A DNA stretch of 64,000 nucleotides from an uncultured delta proteobacterium (lineage in GTDB: Bacteria > Desulfobacterota > Binatia > UBA9968), in the NCBI GenBank assembly GCA_963816145.1, contig CAWFJP010000005.1, forward strand, positions 347,109-411,108. The letters run 5' to 3'. Positions 5,477 to 12,948 of this stretch are shown one piece after another. Numbering within the stretch: position 1 is the stretch's first letter; every line of letters begins with the position of its first letter. A program made the position numbers and the translations under genes. The notes under the pieces are model-generated. The model searched no databases and was not told the origin of the DNA. It saw only the letters and a list, made by a program, of their open reading frames with translations.

Positions 5477-5595
5477 GCGGAATAGTTATTGAATTTACAA
5501 ACAAGCACGCCCTTTCTCTGCGGTCAATTGACAAGCGCTCTTTGCCCAATTACATCTCGTACAGTCGAGGGATATCTAACGGAATGCCGGGAGCT

Positions 5596-6582
5596 ATGAG
5601 CATGACTGTTCGAACATTGGTCGGTATCGCCATTCTGGTTTTGCTCAGTTCGGTCGACCTGAGCGCGCAAAGCCGCAAGGTGCGGGTGGCGATGCCGGGC
5701 TACACCATCGCCGGGATTTCATTTCTTACCGCGAAGGTCAACGGCTACTACGCCGCCGAGGGCTTGGATGTGGAGCTGATCGCCATGCGCGCGCCGACGG
5801 CGAATCTCGCCGTGCTGAGCAGCAGCGTGGAGTTCTCCACGGTGCCTTTGGCTGGATTGAATACGGCGCTGCGCGGCGGCGCATTGAAGATCGTCATGGT
5901 CCACTTCGACAAGCCGCAGCATGTGTTGTTTGTCAAGAATGACCTGCAAAATCTAAAACTCTTGCGCGGCAAAAAAGTCGCCGTGTCCGGGCCGGGAGTG
6001 ATCGACGACTTGCTGTTGCGTGAAGTGCTGGGAAATAACGGCATCGATGCCAACAAAGAGCTGGCTATTCTCAGCATGGGTTCGGCGGATACCCGGGTGA
6101 CCAGCTTGATCAGTGGCGCGGTGGACGGAGCGATGATCATCGCTCCGCATACTTTTACCGCCAAGGACGCGGGCTTTCGCGAATTGGTGGTGTTTCGCGA
6201 CCAGGGTTTGCTCTTGCCGAGCGGCGGTATCGCGGCACGGGACGAAACACTGAAAAACGATCCGGGTTTGGTGGAGCGCTTCACGCGCGCGTCGATGATG
6301 GGGTTCATCCACTCGCGCGATAACCGCGCCGGCGCGATCCGGGTTCTTAGCAAGACGTTAAGGATCGACGAGACGATCGCCGCGAAAGTATACGATTCGT
6401 CGCGACCGACGATGACGGCCGACGGCACGCTCAGTGACGATGCACAAAAGAAAATGGCTGCTTTTGTCGCTAAGTCTGCCGGCCTTAAAGAAATCATAGC
6501 GGCGGACAAGGCCTTCGATTTCTCGTTTGTACGCAAGGCTAACGCTGCGTTGCACACCAAAGGCTGGCAGCCGCTGCCGTGA
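5596..6582 (+). CDS. ABC substrate-binding protein, NMT1/THI5/SsuA-like
   Basis: Signal peptide; GYYAAEGLDVEL, LRGKKVAV, FDFSFV motifs; GGGAG RBS. Confidence 0.85.
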   Translation: MSMTVRTLVGIAILVLLSSVDLSAQSRKVRVAMPGYTIAGISFLTAKVNGYYAAEGLDVELIAMRAPTANLAVLSSSVEFSTVPLAGLNTALRGGALKIVMVHFDKPQHVLFVKNDLQNLKLLRGKKVAVSGPGVIDDLLLREVLGNNGIDANKELAILSMGSADTRVTSLISGAVDGAMIIAPHTFTAKDAGFRELVVFRDQGLLLPSGGIAARDETLKNDPGLVERFTRASMMGFIHSRDNRAGAIRVLSKTLRIDETIAAKVYDSSRPTMTADGTLSDDAQKKMAAFVAKSAGLKEIIAADKAFDFSFVRKANAALHTKGWQPLP

Positions 6583-6631: not shown

Positions 6632-7906
6632 ATGCAACTGACACTGGCCTATCACCCGGTTAGCTCGATTCGCTTCGGCGCTAAATTGAATTTGGACGGC
6701 ACGGTGCTGACGGTTAGCCAAGACGAATTGCGCGCCATTGTTCTCGAAGACTCGCTGATCGAAGCGGTGGACTTCGCCCTCGCCGCGCCCAACGACAGCC
6801 TGCGCGCCGGGCCGGTGTTCGATATCGTCGAGCCGCGCGCCAAGGCGGCGGTCGGCAGCCCGGACTGGCCGGGGATTCTCGGTGCGCCGCAGACCGCCGG
6901 CAGCGGCACTACGCATGTGCTGTCCGGTGCGGCAGTGACCATGCTGCGTGAGGACTCTTCCGGTGATTCGCGCGGCGCCACTGGTTACGTCCTCGAAATG
7001 AGCGGCGCGCCGGCGGCGGGCTCGCATTACGGCACGCTGCGGCATTTGATCGTCGTACCGCGTACTCGGCCGAATATTCCGGCGGCCGCGCGTCAGCGCG
7101 CTTACCGTTTAGCGCAATTGAAAATGGCTGTGCGACTGGCACAGGCGGCTTTTTCTGTCGTACCGGCGCGATCCGAAGTCCTCGATAACGCGGATGCCGA
7201 GCCGCGCGCCGGCTTGCCGCGGCTGGCTTACATTGGTCAAATCTTTTCACGTCAGCGCAAACCGGAAGCCGATGAGCATATACTTTACGGCACTGACACC
7301 GACGGCATGCTGCCGACCCTCCTCCATCCCAACGAGTGGCTCGACGGCGCGTTGGTGCCGTCGTACCACGCGTCAATCGGTGGCGCAGAAACCTATTTTT
7401 ATCAAAATCATCCAGTGATTCTCGAACTCTACCGGCGCCATCGCGCGGGTGAAATAAATTTCATCGGCTCGGTGGCGACGATAGCCTCGGCCAATAATTT
7501 CGACCGCGAACGCAACACGCGCTTTGCGGCCAATCTTACTAAATGGGCACTGCGCGCTGATGCCGCAGTGCTGACCAAGTTCGGCGGCGGCGTGCCGCAC
7601 ACGGATTTGTCGGAGACCGCGCGCGTACTCGAAACCATGGGTGTCAAGACCGCCGTGCAGGTTACGGATCTCGCGCGCGACCACCGGATCGAGTCGGCGC
7701 TATTGTTCAACTTCCCCGAGGTCGACGCCATCGTCTGCATCGGCGGCAACGACACCCACTGGAAGCTGCCGCAGGTCGAGCGCGTGATCGCGGCCAGCAG
7801 CGGCCTGGCGGAGTTGCTCGCCGGCCCGTTGGAGATCGACTCGCTCAATGTGATCGGCGTCGCCAACCAGCAAGGGGCGTCGCGATTGAAGTCGGTGGTG
7901 TATTAA
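6632..7906 (+). CDS. Glycine/sarcosine/betaine reductase component B proprotein-like subunit (GrdE/GrdG/GrdI family)
   Basis: DIVEPRAK, GSGTTHVLSG, PTLLHPNEWLDGAL, TYFYQNHPVILELY motifs; adjacent to a selenoprotein B homolog. Confidence 0.85.
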   Translation: MQLTLAYHPVSSIRFGAKLNLDGTVLTVSQDELRAIVLEDSLIEAVDFALAAPNDSLRAGPVFDIVEPRAKAAVGSPDWPGILGAPQTAGSGTTHVLSGAAVTMLREDSSGDSRGATGYVLEMSGAPAAGSHYGTLRHLIVVPRTRPNIPAAARQRAYRLAQLKMAVRLAQAAFSVVPARSEVLDNADAEPRAGLPRLAYIGQIFSRQRKPEADEHILYGTDTDGMLPTLLHPNEWLDGALVPSYHASIGGAETYFYQNHPVILELYRRHRAGEINFIGSVATIASANNFDRERNTRFAANLTKWALRADAAVLTKFGGGVPHTDLSETARVLETMGVKTAVQVTDLARDHRIESALLFNFPEVDAIVCIGGNDTHWKLPQVERVIAASSGLAELLAGPLEIDSLNVIGVANQQGASRLKSVVY

Positions 7907-8000: not shown

Positions 8001-9272
8001 ATGCGTGTCGTACATTACGTCAATCAATTTTTCGGTGGGCTCGGCGGTGAAGAACACGCAGGAAATGCGCTTGAAATTCGCGATGGTGCGGTGGGGCCGG
8101 GCAAGTTGCTGGAACAACTCTTTGGCAACGACTGCCAAGTGGTGATGACGTTGGTCTGCGGCGATAACTACGCTGTGGAGAATCTGGAGGCGTTGACGGC
8201 CGCTGTATTGGAAAAAATTCGCGCTGCCCAGGCCGATCTGTTTGTCGCCGGGCCATGCTTTCTAGCGGGGCGATACGGCCTGGCGGCGGGGGCGCTGTGC
8301 GCGGCCGCGCAGGCGACATTGAAAATTCCCGTCATCACCGCCATGGCGGCGGAGAATCCCGGCGCCGATCTCTACCGCGAGTTCATGTATATCGTCGACT
8401 CCGGTGACAATAGCGCTAAGATGCGCGAGGTGTTGACGCGAATGGCGGCCATGGCACAGAAGCTCATGCGTCATGAGATCATCGGCAGCCCCAAGGATGA
8501 AGGCTATCTCGTGCGCGGATTGATCCGCGATGAATTTGTCGAGCTATCCGCCGGCCAGCGCTTGGTCGATATGGTGCTCAAGAAAGTGCGCGGCGAGCCC
8601 TTCGAGAGCGAAATGAGTCCGACCACCTTCGCGCCGGTACCGAAGCCGCCGGCGATCGCCGATCTGACAAAAGCCAAGGTGATGCTGGTTACCGACGGCG
8701 GGCTGGTGCCGAAGGGCAATCCAGACAAGATCCAGGGCTCGGCGGCGACTCGCTGGGGCGTGTACAGTGTCAAAGGTTGCCAAGATTTGGATGGCGCCGA
8801 CTACGAGATCTCCCACGGCGGCTATGATCCGCAGTTCGTGCGCCAGGATCCGGATCGGCTGGTGCCGCTGGATGTCATGCGCGAACTGGAACGGGAGGGC
8901 GTCATCGGCGAGTTGCACGAAGAGTTTATTTCCACTTCGGGTCTGTCTAATCCATTGTCGAACACCCGGCGCATGGGACGGGAGATGGCAGCCAAGGCGA
9001 AGCAGCTGGGCATCGACGCGATCATTCTGACTTCAACGTGAGGCACCAGCACTCGCAGCGGCGCTGCGATCACTACGGAATTGGAAAAGGCCGGTATTCC
9101 CACGGTGCAGATTACCGCCGCGTTGCCCGTGGCGAAGATGGTCGGCGCCAATCGGTTGGTGCTCGGCAATGGTATCGTCCATGTGGTGGGCGATGCCAAG
9201 GTATCGAAAGAGGACGAAAAGAAGCTGCGGCGCCGCTTGGTGGAGCAGGCTCTCGCGGCGATGCAAAAGTAA
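8001..9272 (+). CDS. Glycine/sarcosine/betaine reductase selenoprotein B family protein (GrdB/F/H-like), 423 aa, Sec at TGA 9039-9041
   Basis: MRVVHYVNQFFGG, AGPCFLAGRYG, VTDGGLVPKGNPD, HGGYD, DPDRLVPLD; ILTST-TGA-GTSTRSGA continues in frame into ORF 9081-9272 (EKAGIPTVQIT, VGANR). Confidence 0.92.
9053..9069 (+). promoter_or_regulatory. Bacterial SECIS-like hairpin
   Basis: TCGCAGC-GGC-GCTGCGA beginning after an 11-nt spacer following the in-frame TGA; G-containing apical loop. Confidence 0.75.
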
Positions 9273-9522
9273 TAGCCGATGGAATCGCGTCCATAATTTT
9301 GCCCGTTATCGGCCATTGCGCAGGGGTTCTTCGCCGAGGCCCGTAAAGATTGTCCAGTTCCTTGACTTGCTTCGAAGGCTGCTTTGGCTATTGATCGAGT
9401 ATGGCATTATAATCAGCAACGAACCGAGTGAGCTTCGCCGGTGGAGGCAGGCCAAGTGGCGAATACATCAATTTCCCAACTCTATGCCAGGACAATACCA
9501 AATCGCCGATTAGAGATCGCGA

Positions 9523-10662
9523 ATGAAACGTAGATTGATTGGACCGACGGTCATCGCCACGACGCTTTGCCTAGTGCTGTTGCAGCACCGTTTTTTTGGC
9601 GACAAAGGTTGGAGTCTCCTCGGGGTTCTGGGAAAAGTCCTGTCCGTCGTGGGTGCGATCCTTACGCCGCCCGAATCGGTCAGCAGCTTTTTTTATACTA
9701 ATCTCGCGTTGCCGCTGGCGGTCGTTGTTACGGCGCTGGTTGTGCTTTGGATGATTCTAGCCGGCGCCCGGAAGACGATGCGTCAAGTGACCCCCGACGC
9801 GGAGGCGCCGATCTGGGAACTCCCCGTCACCAGCGATACCACTTCGGAGAGCGAACCGTTGGACGACGCGCCTGAATTGTCTTGGTCGCTGCCAGCCTAT
9901 CGCTTCAATTGTCTACGCAGCAAGCTGGTCCTGGGATTTCTCGCGATCAGCCTGTTCGTCGTGGTCGCGGCTGCGTCATTCACTTACAGCTATTTACATC
10001 GCGCGGTGGAGGGCGGCGCCAAGGCGCGCGCAGGCATCACCGCGATGGCGGTCAACGCCACGGCGGTTTGGCATGTCGATGGAAAGAGGTATCAGGAGCT
10101 GCGCGACGAATTGGTCAAGACGACGACCCGACCAGCGGTCGCCTACGCCTATGTCGAGGACAGTGATGGCGAGTTGATTGCTCACGCTCCGAAAGATCTG
10201 CCGAATCATTTGATTCGCCGGCCGTTGTTGGAGCCGCGCCTGATGACTGGCGAACAGTTGGTGGGTTATCGCAACGAGATCGTCTACGACTACGCCCAGC
10301 GCAGTGGCTTGAACAATCGATTCGTCGTCCATCTGGGAATCTGGCAGGACTCGGTGGTGGCCGAGACATGGTCAGTGTTGGGGCCGATCTTGCTTGCGGT
10401 CATTTTGTTGATACTCTGCGCCGCGGCGGTGTTTCTCGTTATGTTGCGGGACCTGCACCGGCCGCTGCTTGAGCTGGTCGAACAGTCGACGCGCATTAGC
10501 AAAGGCAATTTTTCCGTGGCCCTGGCAACCAAGCGGGACGATGAACTGGGAGATCTGGCTCGCTCGTTGGAACGCATGAGATCGAGTTTGCGCGCAGTGC
10601 TTTCCCGTATTGGCACGGAACCTACGGCGACTCCGTCGGAGCGGCAGAGGCGATCGTTTTAG
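9523..10662 (+). CDS. Membrane protein with sensor region and C-terminal HAMP domain, no output domain
   Basis: Several TM segments; RPLLEL...ISKGNF...DDELGDLARSLERMR HAMP, then stop. Confidence 0.7.
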   Translation: MKRRLIGPTVIATTLCLVLLQHRFFGDKGWSLLGVLGKVLSVVGAILTPPESVSSFFYTNLALPLAVVVTALVVLWMILAGARKTMRQVTPDAEAPIWELPVTSDTTSESEPLDDAPELSWSLPAYRFNCLRSKLVLGFLAISLFVVVAAASFTYSYLHRAVEGGAKARAGITAMAVNATAVWHVDGKRYQELRDELVKTTTRPAVAYAYVEDSDGELIAHAPKDLPNHLIRRPLLEPRLMTGEQLVGYRNEIVYDYAQRSGLNNRFVVHLGIWQDSVVAETWSVLGPILLAVILLILCAAAVFLVMLRDLHRPLLELVEQSTRISKGNFSVALATKRDDELGDLARSLERMRSSLRAVLSRIGTEPTATPSERQRRSF

Positions 10663-10799: not shown

Positions 10800-11801
10800 T
10801 CATTTTCCGGTGTAGATTTCTTTGACGAAGCCGGAACTCTCCAACTCTTGAAGTAAGCGGTTGTCGTAGAAATCCTTGGGATTGGCCGCGGCGGCTTTGG
10901 GGTGGTCGGTCACCGAAAGCGCGGCTCGGATGGCGTCATCGGTGACGTACGGCACCCGTGGAAACAGCTGGGCAAAGCTGCGGTAGGCTTCGTCGATGAT
11001 TTCTTGATCTTTTGACGCGAGATATTTGCCGATGGCGCGCTTGGAAATATCCGGCTGCTCGATCGACAGTTTCAACCCGACCACCATCGCTTTTAGAAAT
11101 CCCCGCACGACATCGGGACTTTGCTGGATCGCCGAACGGCGCACGGCTAATCCCATGAATGGATAGGGCAGCTTGAGCGCGCCGATGTTGACCAGTTCCT
11201 TGAAGCCCAAGCGGCGCGCCATCAACGTCGTCGGCGCCGAGTGGACCGCGGCTTGGACGATGCCTTGATTCAACGCCGCCAGCGCGTCTTCCTGGCGCGA
11301 GAAGTAGAGTACCTTCATATCCTGCTGGGTCATTTTGTATTGTCTCAAAAGGGCGATAGCGGCATGGTCGGAAGACGCGCCTTTGGTGATGACGCCGAGC
11401 ACTTTGCCGCGCAGGTCGGGCACCTCTTTGATCTCCGGACGGGCGTACAAAGAAAACGCATAGGTCGCCACCGGCATGCCGACATAAATAAACTCGGCGC
11501 CGCTCAACATGGCGTTGACCGCCGCGCCGCCGGTCATGGCGATATCGACCGCGCCGGACAGCATCGATTGCGTCAAGCGGACGCCGCCGGGGATGTAGAC
11601 GGGCTTGATGTCAAGGTTGTATTTCTGATCGATCTTGCTGTCGGCGATGTTCCACAGCGGCGTCTGGCCGCCGTTCAGTTGCGGGTAGCCGACGCGGATC
11701 GTCGTCGGCGCGGCGGCGTGGAGAGAATTGGCCGCAAAGAGCGCAAAGGTCGCAAAAAATATTGCCATAACAAGACTGCTCAACAATTTTGATGATACCA
11801 T
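10800..11801 (-). CDS. ABC substrate-binding protein, NMT1/THI5/SsuA-like
   Basis: Signal peptide; DLRGKVLGV, DFYDNRLLQELESSGF. Confidence 0.85.
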   Translation of the reverse strand: MVSSKLLSSLVMAIFFATFALFAANSLHAAAPTTIRVGYPQLNGGQTPLWNIADSKIDQKYNLDIKPVYIPGGVRLTQSMLSGAVDIAMTGGAAVNAMLSGAEFIYVGMPVATYAFSLYARPEIKEVPDLRGKVLGVITKGASSDHAAIALLRQYKMTQQDMKVLYFSRQEDALAALNQGIVQAAVHSAPTTLMARRLGFKELVNIGALKLPYPFMGLAVRRSAIQQSPDVVRGFLKAMVVGLKLSIEQPDISKRAIGKYLASKDQEIIDEAYRSFAQLFPRVPYVTDDAIRAALSVTDHPKAAAANPKDFYDNRLLQELESSGFVKEIYTGK

Positions 11802-11943
11802 GAGTTGTGGAGCCCCCCGCGGTTTGGCGTTGCGATTGTTCACTGACTACTTAGCAGGAAAATCCTATCTCGACAAAGCTCTTGTCGGAGAGTGCGGGTC
11901 TGGAGTATTGGTGGACATCGCCATGGCATACAAGATCAAGATC

Positions 11944-12948
11944 ATGTTCACCACGAGGGACACGAAGATCACGAAGGGTTTCGTTGCGGTTTTTACCGCG
12001 CTTCTCTTCATAGGTGGATTCAGACCGGCTAACGCTTTGGACAATGTGCGCGTTGCGACCGCTTCACTGACTTCACCGTCGATTCTCTACCTCCTAGTCG
12101 CCCAGAAGGAGGGTTACTTCAAGAACGAAGGACTCAACGTCGAGATCCTCAACATTCGCGGCGAGCTCGCCGCGAAGATCACGTCGGTCGGTGAAATCGA
12201 TTTCTTTACTCAGGGATTTAGCGGTTTGAACGCGGCGGTGCGAGGCTTGCAGCTCAAAGTTATCATGGTCGTCGACGAGAAGCCGGACTGGGATTTTATC
12301 ACCCAGCCGCAGATCAAGACTTTTGCGCAACTGAAAGGCGGCGCCGTCGGCATCCTTTCCATCGGCGGCACGGTCGCGGTGGTGACCCGCGAGATGCTGC
12401 GGCGCAATAACCTGGACCCGGCGAAGGATGTCAACTTGATGGTTATGGGCGGCAACGACATGCGCTTCATCTCGCTCAAGGGCAAAGTGATCGGGGCCAC
12501 GCTCCTGGACGCCGCCAATAGTTATCGCGCGCAGAAAGATGGCTTCTACAAATTGGCGGCGGCTAGTGATTACGTGAGCGAGTATATGAGCGGCGGGATC
12601 GTCACTTCGACGGAACGGATCAAGCAGGCCCCGGATAAGGTCGCCCGCTTCATGACCGGCGCCCTCAAGGGTTACCTATTCTTTACCACGCGTCGCGAAC
12701 CATCGATCAACTACATGATGCAATTCTTGAAGACCAAGGATAGGGAAGCGGTCAGCGCGATTTACGACGCCAGCGTGAAAGTCATGACCCGGGACGGCAT
12801 GATTGAGGAAAAGGTGCTGCAAGCCGTGATCGATGAAGCCCAGCGTGGCGCTGGAGTGAAAAAGGATGTTCGCACCGCGGATTATTTCGACTTCAGTTTT
12901 CTACGGAAGGCGCGGGAGCAATTGAGGGTGAGCGGGTGGAAGCCGTGA
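11944..12948 (+). CDS. ABC substrate-binding protein, NMT1/THI5/SsuA-like
   Basis: QKEGYFKNEGLNVE, FDFSFL; start uncertain (11923 or 11944). Confidence 0.85.
   Translation: MFTTRDTKITKGFVAVFTALLFIGGFRPANALDNVRVATASLTSPSILYLLVAQKEGYFKNEGLNVEILNIRGELAAKITSVGEIDFFTQGFSGLNAAVRGLQLKVIMVVDEKPDWDFITQPQIKTFAQLKGGAVGILSIGGTVAVVTREMLRRNNLDPAKDVNLMVMGGNDMRFISLKGKVIGATLLDAANSYRAQKDGFYKLAAASDYVSEYMSGGIVTSTERIKQAPDKVARFMTGALKGYLFFTTRREPSINYMMQFLKTKDREAVSAIYDASVKVMTRDGMIEEKVLQAVIDEAQRGAGVKKDVRTADYFDFSFLRKAREQLRVSGWKP

What the first reader, a model, noticed from the sequence alone, without database searches (positions are those of the whole stretch)
9039..9062. Active-site motif is UxxSxxS instead of UxxCxxC
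Seen: TGA GGC ACC AGC ACT CGC AGC. Clostridial glycine reductase GrdB has U-G-T-C-T-R-C. Both Cys are Ser (AGC) here, and the second AGC forms part of the SECIS stem. The selenol has no adjacent resolving or protecting thiols, implying different chemistry or a different reductant (inference).
Basis: partly seen in the sequence, partly recalled or inferred. Interest (0 to 1): 0.72.

Follow-up and report, generated by a model that had tools for sequence, protein, structure and literature searches.

The report
Selenoprotein B lacking its usual cysteines

Summary
Window 9039-9059 reads TGA GGC ACC AGC ACT CGC AGC, in frame in a 423-codon GrdB-family gene (8001-9272).

It is not an error. Contigs of three independent DNA runs show the same bases. 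All 42 close homologues in genomes and 79 of 80 metagenome loci read U-G-T-S-T-R-S. These form one clade (support 100), nested among UxxSxxC forms.

The second Ser codon lies in the SECIS stem, and the Cys-to-Ser change is matched by a compensating base on the other arm.

- The GrdE-like partner lacks the self-cleaving cysteines.
- Sec-GrdA with an intact CxxU motif is present in the genomes searched, usually beside a GrdC-like gene.
- GrdD was not found in any genome searched.
- Basal clade members, including a second copy in this genome, sit beside a DUF255 thioredoxin-like gene with a CxxC motif.
- The clade has gained an invariant Cys86.

My reading is a substrate-specific selenoprotein B of a non-canonical, GrdD-less Grd-type reductase, whose thiols are supplied in trans.

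Fluoroacetate reductase FarB (UxxSxxC) is a partial precedent. I found no paper describing UxxSxxS. This scan has reported the same lineage before on other DNA.

The parts
5542..6582 (+). NMT1/SsuA-family solute-binding protein gene, directly upstream
   Evidence: Pfam NMT1 8.1e-18. TIGR01728 scores 70.7 bits, below its cut-off of 163.5. The same neighbour occurs in L010, L013 and L015.
6632..7906 (+). GrdE-like partner subunit (424 aa) lacking the autoprocessing cysteines
   Evidence: Pfam Gly_reductase 5.3e-72. Canonical S-G-N-C-V-S-A-C is replaced by P-S-Y-H-A-S-I. 0 of 33 clade partners have Cys at either canonical site; Ser244 is invariant in 33 of 33.
8001..9272 (+). GrdB-family selenoprotein gene (423 codons plus stop), Sec at codon 347
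   Evidence: Pfam GRDB 7.9e-131. TIGR01918 scores 480 bits, above its cut-off of 65. dN/dS is 0.01-0.17 downstream of the TGA against nine of ten clade members (0.32 against L050) and 0.10-0.19 upstream.
8256..8258 (+). TGC codon for Cys86 (motif GPCF), a clade-specific cysteine
   Evidence: Cys in 37 of 37 clade rows, against Ala in 30 of 31 canonical and 11 of 12 other rows. Cys in 69 of 69 metagenome loci that hold the region.
9039..9041 (+). UGA selenocysteine codon (U347)
   Evidence: In-frame TGA in all 85 copies. tRNA-Sec and SelB are present in the genome.
9048..9050 (+). AGC, Ser350, in place of the first Cys of UxxCxxC
   Evidence: Ser in 37 of 37 clade rows, always AGC or AGT.
9057..9059 (+). 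AGC, Ser353, in place of the second Cys; part of the SECIS 5' arm
   Evidence: nt 19 (A) pairs with nt 27 (U).
9054..9068 (+). SECIS hairpin: a 6-bp stem (9054-9059 with 9063-9068) and GGC loop, starting 16 nt from the U of UGA
   Evidence: Fold. 98.9% of 456 cells are paired, and two pairs covary.
9523..10662 (+). Membrane protein ending in a HAMP domain, the conserved downstream neighbour in the Binatia subclade
   Evidence: Pfam HAMP 2.2e-12. Homologue downstream in 7 of 8 Binatia-type loci examined and present in 28 of 80 metagenome loci.

Best explanation
Window 8001-9272 encodes a functional selenocysteine protein of the GrdB ('selenoprotein B') family. The UGA at 9039 is read as Sec through the hairpin at 9054-9068. 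The protein belongs to a large clade from Binatia, Chloroflexota/SAR202, Nitrospinota and other soil, wetland and marine lineages. In this clade the family's U-x-x-C-x-x-C motif is fixed as U-G-T-S-T-R-S.

Inferred: it pairs with the adjacent GrdE-like protein to form the substrate-specific 'protein B' of a non-canonical Grd-type reductase. That partner lacks the cysteines that self-cleave to make the pyruvoyl group, so the substrate is probably not held as a Schiff base. It more likely carries its own good leaving group next to a carboxymethyl-type carbon, as in betaine (GrdI) or fluoroacetate (FarE). Sec347, at the N-terminus of a helix, attacks that carbon. The resulting selenoether is passed to Sec of GrdA, whose CxxU motif is intact and whose gene lies elsewhere in the genome beside a GrdC-like gene.

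The lineage has no GrdD, so acetyl phosphate is probably not the end product. With Ser for Cys (a UxxS 'mono-selenol' site) the protein cannot form an internal selenenyl-sulfide. Protection and re-reduction of the selenol would then come from other thiols: GrdA, the clade-specific Cys86, and/or the clade-associated DUF255 thioredoxin-like CxxC protein.

Shown: gene integrity, Sec decoding signals, the clade, the partner's missing Cys, which partners are present or absent, and synteny. Inferred: substrate class, transfer to GrdA, and the roles of DUF255 and Cys86.
For: Family: GRDB 7.9e-131; TIGR01918 480 bits.

Clade: 42 of 85 genome copies and 79 of 80 metagenome loci read UGTSTRS. The 37 full-length rows form one clade with SH-aLRT 100, whose nearest neighbours are UGTSTRC/UGSSTRC rows (98).

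Selection: dN/dS is about 0.1 on both sides of the TGA.

SECIS: 98.9% of cells paired. Pair 19-27 is AU 44 / UA 31 / GC 1, and pair 18-28 is CG 49 / UA 26 / UG 1.

Sec machinery: tRNA-Sec and SelB (417 bits) are present.

Partner: 0 of 33 clade GrdE-like proteins have the canonical Cys, against 27 of 27 canonical ones.

GrdA: Sec-GrdA found in 34 of 41 relatives (33 of 40 without the unpublished G005) and in 10 of 10 other clade-bearing genomes. The CFVU motif is intact.

GrdC: a GrdC-like gene lies directly upstream of grdA. In L041 the order is DUF255-GrdE-GrdB-GrdC, with the genome's grdA hit at coordinates that would follow grdC if G041:C37 is L041's contig, which I did not verify.

GrdD: 0 of 41 relatives at 1e-10 and 0 of 5 other genomes over the cut-off.

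DUF255: a specific DUF255 protein with an FWC(G/R)(F/Y)C motif lies beside 7 clade loci and beside this genome's second UGTSTRS copy. It lies beside 0 of 39 non-clade loci.

Structure: the AF2 model (pLDDT 91.9) puts U347 between strand 340-345 and helix 348-363.

Precedent: FarB lacks the CxxC and FarE is unprocessed (PMC10838667, passages); FarB reads UGTSSRC in 3 loci.
Against: - There is no biochemical or expression evidence. One RNA-run contig matches only 9024-9101, with 7 differences.
- In this genome GrdC is in four frame-shifted pieces. That could be decay or assembly indels.
- The window's own copy is not next to DUF255, GrdA or GrdC. DUF255 synteny holds for only 7 of 39 clade loci in genomes and 1 of 80 metagenome loci.
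- Ser244 of the partner is invariant and could in principle give a Ser-derived pyruvoyl group; I could not test this.
- The C86 / S350 / S353 association is a single evolutionary event, so it carries no statistical weight.
- The role of the canonical CxxC is itself only proposed in the papers I read.
Confidence: 0.6

Rival explanations
1. Same chemistry and partners as textbook protein B. The two cysteines are dispensable accessories, and their replacement by serine is a neutral or oxygen-related adaptation (fewer oxidisable thiols) with no change of reductant.
For: - The first Cys varies widely (S, G, D) in otherwise intact copies, and FarB works without it (PMC10838667, passages).
- This genome's six paralogues carry five different motifs.
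- GrdA's CFVU motif is intact.
- The clade sits in lineages from soil, wetland and ocean samples.
Against: - The change co-occurs with loss of the partner's processing Cys, absence of GrdD, gain of Cys86 and DUF255 synteny. More than a neutral swap separates this clade.
- Ser is invariant in over 120 sequences, which indicates constraint on Ser itself.
Confidence: 0.22
2. A GrdA-independent reductase that works like D-proline reductase PrdB. Sec forms the selenoether, and an external dithiol protein (DUF255) or Cys86 resolves it directly, releasing the reduced product without an acyl-thioester.
For: - DUF255 is syntenic with GrdE/GrdB rather than with GrdC/GrdA in 6 of 7 such loci.
- GrdD was not found.
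- The window pair stands apart from grdA and grdC.
Against: - Sec-GrdA is present in 10 of 10 other clade-bearing genomes, usually with GrdC.
- L041 has DUF255, GrdE, GrdB and GrdC-like as neighbouring same-strand genes, and that genome's grdA hit probably follows them.
- The PrdB model scores only 87.7 bits against a cut-off of 300.
Confidence: 0.15
3. Inactive or pseudogenised B component. One paper read the lack of UxxCxxC in a Peptococcaceae gene this way.
For: PMC6778437 (passages) calls a B component without UxxCxxC a likely pseudogene. GrdC is fragmented in this genome.
Against: - The frame is intact and dN/dS is about 0.1 on both sides of the UGA.
- The SECIS is kept by compensatory changes.
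- The motif is invariant in over 120 sequences from several phyla.
Confidence: 0.02
4. Sequencing or assembly error turned TGC into AGC.
For: None found.
Against: Contigs of three DNA runs from different studies agree over 9039-9062. The same codons occur in 42 genome copies and 79 metagenome loci.
Confidence: 0.01

Closest known systems
Glycine / sarcosine / betaine reductase selenoprotein B (GrdB, GrdF, GrdH; PF07355, TIGR01918) of Peptostreptococcaceae and relatives
   Same: - Full-length homology (43-51% identity) and an S-T-U-G core.
- Sec at the same column.
- SECIS hairpin of the same size and spacing.
- Adjacent GrdE-type partner.
- Sec-GrdA present in the genome.
   Different: - UGTSTRS instead of UGTCTRC; the third downstream Cys is also lost (T372) and Cys86 is gained.
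- Scores fall below the GrdB, GrdF and GrdH equivalog cut-offs.
- The partner is not a pyruvoyl proprotein.
- No GrdD, and no TrxA/TrxB in the cluster.
Fluoroacetate reductase FarB/FarE of Synergistota (Cloacibacillus, Pyramidobacter; PMC10838667)
   Same: A GrdB homologue reported to lack the protective CxxC, paired with an unprocessed GrdE homologue. The substrate has its own leaving group, so no Schiff base is needed.
   Different: - FarB keeps the second Cys (UGTSSRC, Ser codon TCN) in the 3 loci read.
- The window's partner scores 137 bits against the FarE cut-off of 675.
- No radical-SAM or antiporter genes are nearby.
- Different phyla and habitats.
Betaine reductase GrdH/GrdI
   Same: The GrdE-type subunit is not processed (GrdI, as cited in PMC10838667). 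This is the likely logic for a substrate that cannot form an imine.
   Different: GrdH is described as UxxCxxC (PMC6778437, passages). P0001 scores 433.7 bits against the GrdH cut-off of 775. Betaine reductase uses GrdC and GrdD.
D-proline reductase PrdB
   Same: Same superfamily, with Sec as the nucleophile. No acetyl-phosphate step and no protein-C alpha subunit (recalled).
   Different: Only the C-terminal half aligns, at 87.7 bits against a cut-off of 300. PrdA-type pyruvoyl partner. GrdA is not used.

Membership tests
GrdB family (PF07355 / TIGR01918 'various_sel_PB') | Full-length match above the curated cut-off | tested here: met
   PF07355 436.9 bits (cut-off 22). TIGR01918 480 bits (cut-off 65.45).
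GrdB family (PF07355 / TIGR01918 'various_sel_PB') | In-frame UGA (Sec) in an S-T-U-G context, followed by a SECIS hairpin | tested here: met
   tRNA-Sec and SelB are in the genome.
GrdB family (PF07355 / TIGR01918 'various_sel_PB') | UxxCxxC motif after Sec, as stated for GrdB/F/H in PMC6778437 | tested here: not met
   UGTSTRS. This is invariant in the clade.
Glycine reductase GrdB proper (TIGR01917), sarcosine GrdF (NF040794), betaine GrdH (NF040795) | Score above the equivalog cut-off | tested here: not met
   443.2 against 602.2; 483.8 against 800; 433.7 against 775.
Canonical glycine reductase complex (GrdABCDE with Trx) | GrdE proprotein with the self-cleaving Cys (S-G-N-C...C) | tested here: not met
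   0 of 33 clade partners have it, against 27 of 27 canonical ones.
Canonical glycine reductase complex (GrdABCDE with Trx) | Selenoprotein A (GrdA, CxxU) in the genome | tested here: met
   G000 C2:212428-212859, 184 bits (cut-off 130), CFVU motif.
Canonical glycine reductase complex (GrdABCDE with Trx) | Protein C beta subunit GrdC | tested here: inconclusive
   Present upstream of grdA but in four frame-shifted pieces in G000. It is intact in relatives.
Canonical glycine reductase complex (GrdABCDE with Trx) | Protein C alpha subunit GrdD, which forms acetyl phosphate | tested here: not met
   Only a 20-bit PlsX-level hit in G000. 0 of 41 relatives and 0 of 5 other clade genomes over the cut-off.
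Fluoroacetate reductase FarB/FarE | FarE equivalog score for the partner; FarB-type motif | tested here: not met
   P0002 scores 137.3 bits against a cut-off of 675. FarB reads UGTSSRC.
D-proline reductase PrdB (TIGR04483) | Equivalog score | tested here: not met
   87.7 bits against a cut-off of 300.

The most novel reading that the evidence does not exclude
The UxxSxxS proteins are the substrate subunits of an undescribed, widespread selenium enzyme system of largely aerobic soil and ocean bacteria (Binatia, SAR202, Nitrospinota). It would have a mono-selenol active site with no internal resolving thiol, an unprocessed GrdE-like partner, and GrdA plus GrdC without GrdD. A dedicated DUF255 thioredoxin-like protein would act as trans reductant or protector. 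The system would reductively cleave abundant non-imine substrates, such as quaternary-ammonium or sulfonium osmolytes, to an acyl-thioester or acyl-CoA rather than acetyl phosphate. The many paralogues per genome (six here) would be a substrate-range expansion.
Probability: 0.3. Interest if true: 0.75.

Novelty: new variant of a known kind. Interest (0 to 1): 0.55.

Why it matters
Textbook accounts and genome annotators treat UxxCxxC as required for selenoprotein B; one paper called a gene without it a pseudogene. Here the motif is dispensable in a clade that is common in soil, wetland and marine metagenomes.

That clade also lacks the pyruvoyl site and GrdD. So 'glycine/betaine reductase' annotations in Binatia, SAR202 and similar genomes probably mislabel an enzyme with a different substrate and end product.

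The finding gives three concrete, testable handles on how a selenol is protected and recycled outside strict anaerobes: Ser350/Ser353, Cys86 and the DUF255 partner.

Tried and rejected
- **Complex prediction.** There is no result and I tried no other route.
- **C86-U347 distance.** Coordinates of the AF2 model were not available to me, so the distance could not be measured.
- **Solved structures.** Foldseek of the model against the PDB gave only generic two-domain Rossmann/PBP-like hits at TM about 0.2. No solved relative was found.
- **Expression.** The one RNA run (X20) gave contigs only over 9024-9101 (7 and 5 differences) and 9153-9303. This is not evidence that this gene is transcribed.
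- **SECIS energy.** The hairpin's folding energy alone is not distinctive (z = -0.28). Support for it comes from covariation.
- **Apparent 555-aa ORF.** An ORF upstream of L049's grdB had no Pfam match and looks like an antisense artefact.
- **Rejected readings.** Sequencing error and pseudogene (see rivals).
- **Literature.** Four searches found no paper describing UxxSxxS GrdB or grdA/grdC in Binatia, Chloroflexota or Nitrospinota. Subscription papers (Wagner 1999, Andreesen 2004, Kohlstock 2001) and the Parther thesis were not readable. Supplements of PMC10838667, which hold the FarB alignment figures, were not opened.

Full report
**1. The observation**

Window 9039-9059 reads TGA GGC ACC AGC ACT CGC AGC. 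The TGA closes ORF 8001-9041, but the frame runs on to TAA at 9270-9272. With TGA read as U it gives a 423-residue protein with ...ILTSTUGTSTRSGAAITTELEKA....

The protein matches Pfam GRDB over residues 1-346 (7.9e-131). It matches TIGR01918 end to end at 480 bits (cut-off 65). It falls below the equivalog cut-offs for glycine GrdB (443 against 602), sarcosine GrdF (484 against 800) and betaine GrdH (434 against 775).

The gene upstream (6632-7906) is a GrdE-type protein (PF09338, 5.3e-72). Before it lies an NMT1/SsuA-type binding protein. No grdA, grdC, grdD or thioredoxin gene appeared among the 20 ORFs (31-30768) that I scanned against Pfam.

**2. Not an error, and translated**

Contigs of three DNA runs from different studies cover 9039-9062 with no differences. 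The only listed difference is a synonymous 9062 C>T in one RNA-run contig.

Against ten clade members, dN/dS is 0.10-0.19 upstream of the TGA. Downstream it is 0.01-0.17 for nine of them and 0.32 for L050. So the 76 codons after the TGA are translated and constrained.

The genome holds a tRNA-Sec and SelB at 417 bits, above its cut-off of 242.

**3. A conserved clade**

A scan of one genome per species found 305 relatives. The best 80 were kept, giving 79 loci. One locus (L077) gave no motif match and one (L044) holds two copies.

Together with the six paralogues of the window's own genome, I read 85 copies:

| Motif | Copies |
|---|---|
| UGTSTRS | 42 |
| UGTCTRC (Bacillota and others) | 31 |
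| UGTSTRC | 4 |
| UGTGTRC | 2 |
| UGTDTRC, UGTCNRC, UGSCSRG, UGTCSRS, UGSSTRC, UGTGTRS | 1 each |

Every copy at 57% identity or more to the query is UGTSTRS. By record title these come from Binatia and 'delta proteobacterium' MAGs, Chloroflexota/Dehalococcoidia/SAR202, Nitrospinota, a Udaeobacter MAG and others.

I built a quick maximum-likelihood tree of the 80 rows of at least 370 residues. Five short UGTSTRS rows were dropped. The 37 UGTSTRS rows form one clade (SH-aLRT 100), nested in a group (98) with the UGTSTRC rows and the genome's own UGSSTRC paralogue. That fits stepwise loss from UxxCxxC to UxxSxxC to UxxSxxS, although the root was not inferred.

In 80 metagenome loci at 70-98% identity, 79 read UGTSTRS; the 80th is cut before the motif. 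The Ser codons are always AGC or AGT.

**4. SECIS**

The hairpin is nt 16-21 paired with nt 25-30 after the U of UGA (window 9054-9059 with 9063-9068), with a GGN loop. Its folding energy alone is unremarkable.

Across 85 sequences (76 distinct), 98.9% of cells pair, against 87.0 ± 1.1 in shuffles and at most 61% when the partner is slid. Two pairs covary:

- Pair 19-27: A-U in 44, U-A in 31, G-C in 1.
- Pair 18-28: C-G in 49, U-A in 26, U-G in 1.

So the UGC-to-AGC change that turns the second Cys into Ser is matched by GCA-to-GCU on the 3' arm.

**5. What else differs**

*(a) The partner.* Canonical GrdE reads S-G-N-C-V-S-A-C-D-K in 27 of 27 rows. The 33 clade partners have no Cys at either position and read [PTI]-S-Y-H-x-S; Ser244 is invariant. 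PMC10838667 (passages) describes the same lack in FarE and in betaine GrdI, and reads it as 'not a proprotein'.

*(b) Cysteines in GrdB.*
- C53 is near-universal (78 of 80 rows).
- The clade lacks the two motif Cys.
- It also lacks a third downstream Cys (T372, where 27 of 31 canonical rows have Cys).
- It has Cys86 (GPCF) in 37 of 37 rows, where 30 of 31 canonical and 11 of 12 other rows have Ala. Cys86 is present in 69 of 69 metagenome loci that hold the region.
- This is one evolutionary event, so it is an association, not a test.

*(c) Partners elsewhere in the genome.*
- The window's genome has one Sec-GrdA (184 bits, CFVU) on another contig. A GrdC-like gene directly upstream of it is in four frame-shifted pieces.
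- No GrdD was found there; the best hit is a 20-bit PlsX-level match.
- Among 41 genomes of the same genus and order, Sec-GrdA was found in 34 and GrdD in 0 at 1e-10. One of the 41, G005, is unpublished; without it the counts are 33 of 40 and 0 of 40.
- Ten other clade-bearing genomes all have Sec-GrdA.
- Five of those were searched for GrdD and none passed the cut-off.
- An intact GrdC-like gene (DUF5940 with or without ACP_syn_III) lies beside grdA in 8 of the 9 loci submitted from that set, and in relatives.

*(d) Synteny.*
- Seven clade loci carry a specific DUF255/thioredoxin-like protein with an (α/α)6 domain next to GrdE/GrdB. These loci are from Chloroflexota, SAR202, Nitrospinota and one Binatia genome. 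The proteins are 48-65% identical to P0004 (L047).
- The motif is FWC(G/R)(F/Y)C in the six copies with a complete N-terminus.
- The gene order is DUF255-GrdE-GrdB or GrdB-DUF255-GrdE.
- The same gene lies beside the second UGTSTRS copy of this genome (C31).
- It lies beside none of the 39 non-clade loci and beside only 1 of 80 metagenome loci, many of which are short.
- L041 carries DUF255-GrdE-GrdB-GrdC, and that genome's grdA hit lies at coordinates that would follow grdC if G041:C37 is the same contig, which I did not verify.
- The window's copy belongs to a Binatia subclade. There the neighbours are instead a HAMP-ending membrane protein (7 of 8 loci examined) and often an NMT1-type binding protein or an Amidohydro_2 gene.

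**6. Structure**

An alignment-based AF2 model (pLDDT 91.9, pTM 0.57) places U347 between strand 340-345 and helix 348-363. Residues 350 and 353 then lie on successive turns of that helix. This is the geometry of a CxxC/UxxC redox motif (inference).

UxxS would keep a hydrogen-bond donor but cannot form a selenenyl-sulfide. No solved relative exists in the PDB copy searched. I could not obtain coordinates to measure the C86-U347 distance.

**7. Known precedents**

- PMC6778437 (passages) states UxxCxxC for GrdB/F/H. It calls the motif 'required ... to protect against accidental oxidation' and treats a gene lacking it as a likely pseudogene.
- Marine selenoproteome surveys list GrdB as UxxC (PMC2398784, passages; PMC1088965, passages).
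- PMC10838667 (passages) reports that FarB lacks the CxxC. I read the gene downstream of FarE equivalogs in three Synergistota genomes: it is UGTSSRC, so only the first Cys is missing. Three further FarE loci gave no motif match.
- Four literature searches found nothing on UxxSxxS.

Statements about Wagner 1999, Bednarski 2001, Kohlstock 2001 and Andreesen 2004 are second-hand or recalled.

**8. Reading**

The gene is a working selenoprotein B of a non-canonical Grd-type system.

The clade does, however, differ in a coordinated way: no pyruvoyl site, no GrdD, a new Cys86 and a dedicated thioredoxin-like neighbour. A different substrate class, end product and redox partner are therefore likely. 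The substrate remains unknown.

**9. Earlier notes of this scan**

After my own analysis I looked these up. They describe the same lineage on other DNA: e1-778443, e1-983627, e1-781572, e1-1367857, e1-2876041 and e1-899850. They agree with the results above. So this is a repeat find within the scan, though I found it in no paper.

Noticed in passing
G000 C2:210846-212235 (locus L001 1-1400): The GrdC-like gene upstream of grdA is split over four frames, whereas relatives have an intact 441-483 aa gene. This may be real decay or assembly indels.
   Followed up: partly
G000: L003 (C27), L004 (C31), L005 (C29), L006 (C8), L007 (C4): The genome has six Sec-GrdB paralogues with five different post-Sec motifs: UGTSTRS twice, then UGSCSRG, UGTCSRS, UGSSTRC and UGTGTRS. 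It also has at least eight GrdE-like genes. This suggests a large substrate-range expansion.
   Followed up: partly
L099 1342-2940 (G000 C31:~465900-467500): This genome's clade-type DUF255 gene has an N-terminal 60 residues that do not align with its relatives before the FWCRYC motif. This may be a frameshift or assembly indel.
   Followed up: no
L039, L040: Two MAG copies of the clade gene open only as 195-201 aa ORFs upstream of the TGA, although tblastn matched residues 1-422 of the query. These look like frameshifts and may be assembly indels.
   Followed up: no
L113-L115, about nt 1081-1117: Upstream of FarE/FarB in three Synergistota genomes lies a GrdB-like gene with Cys in place of Sec (S-T-C-G-T-S-T-R-C), a non-selenium paralogue.
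   Followed up: no
window 5542-6582, 10800-11843 (-), 11728-12948: Three NMT1/SsuA-type solute-binding protein genes lie within 8 kb, and none of the neighbouring ORFs I scanned is an ABC permease or ATPase. An SsuA-like binding protein also lies beside grdA on contig C2.
   Followed up: no
window 9523-10662: A membrane protein that ends right after its HAMP domain, with no output domain. It is the most conserved neighbour of the window's subclade and is duplicated in L015, L018 and L031.
   Followed up: partly
window 9035-9081: Contig depth in soil and wetland runs jumps 4-7 fold over the Sec/SECIS segment (66 and 53 against about 7-19 in the bins upstream). Loose ends diverge on both sides. 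Many related genes in those samples share this stretch almost exactly.
   Followed up: no
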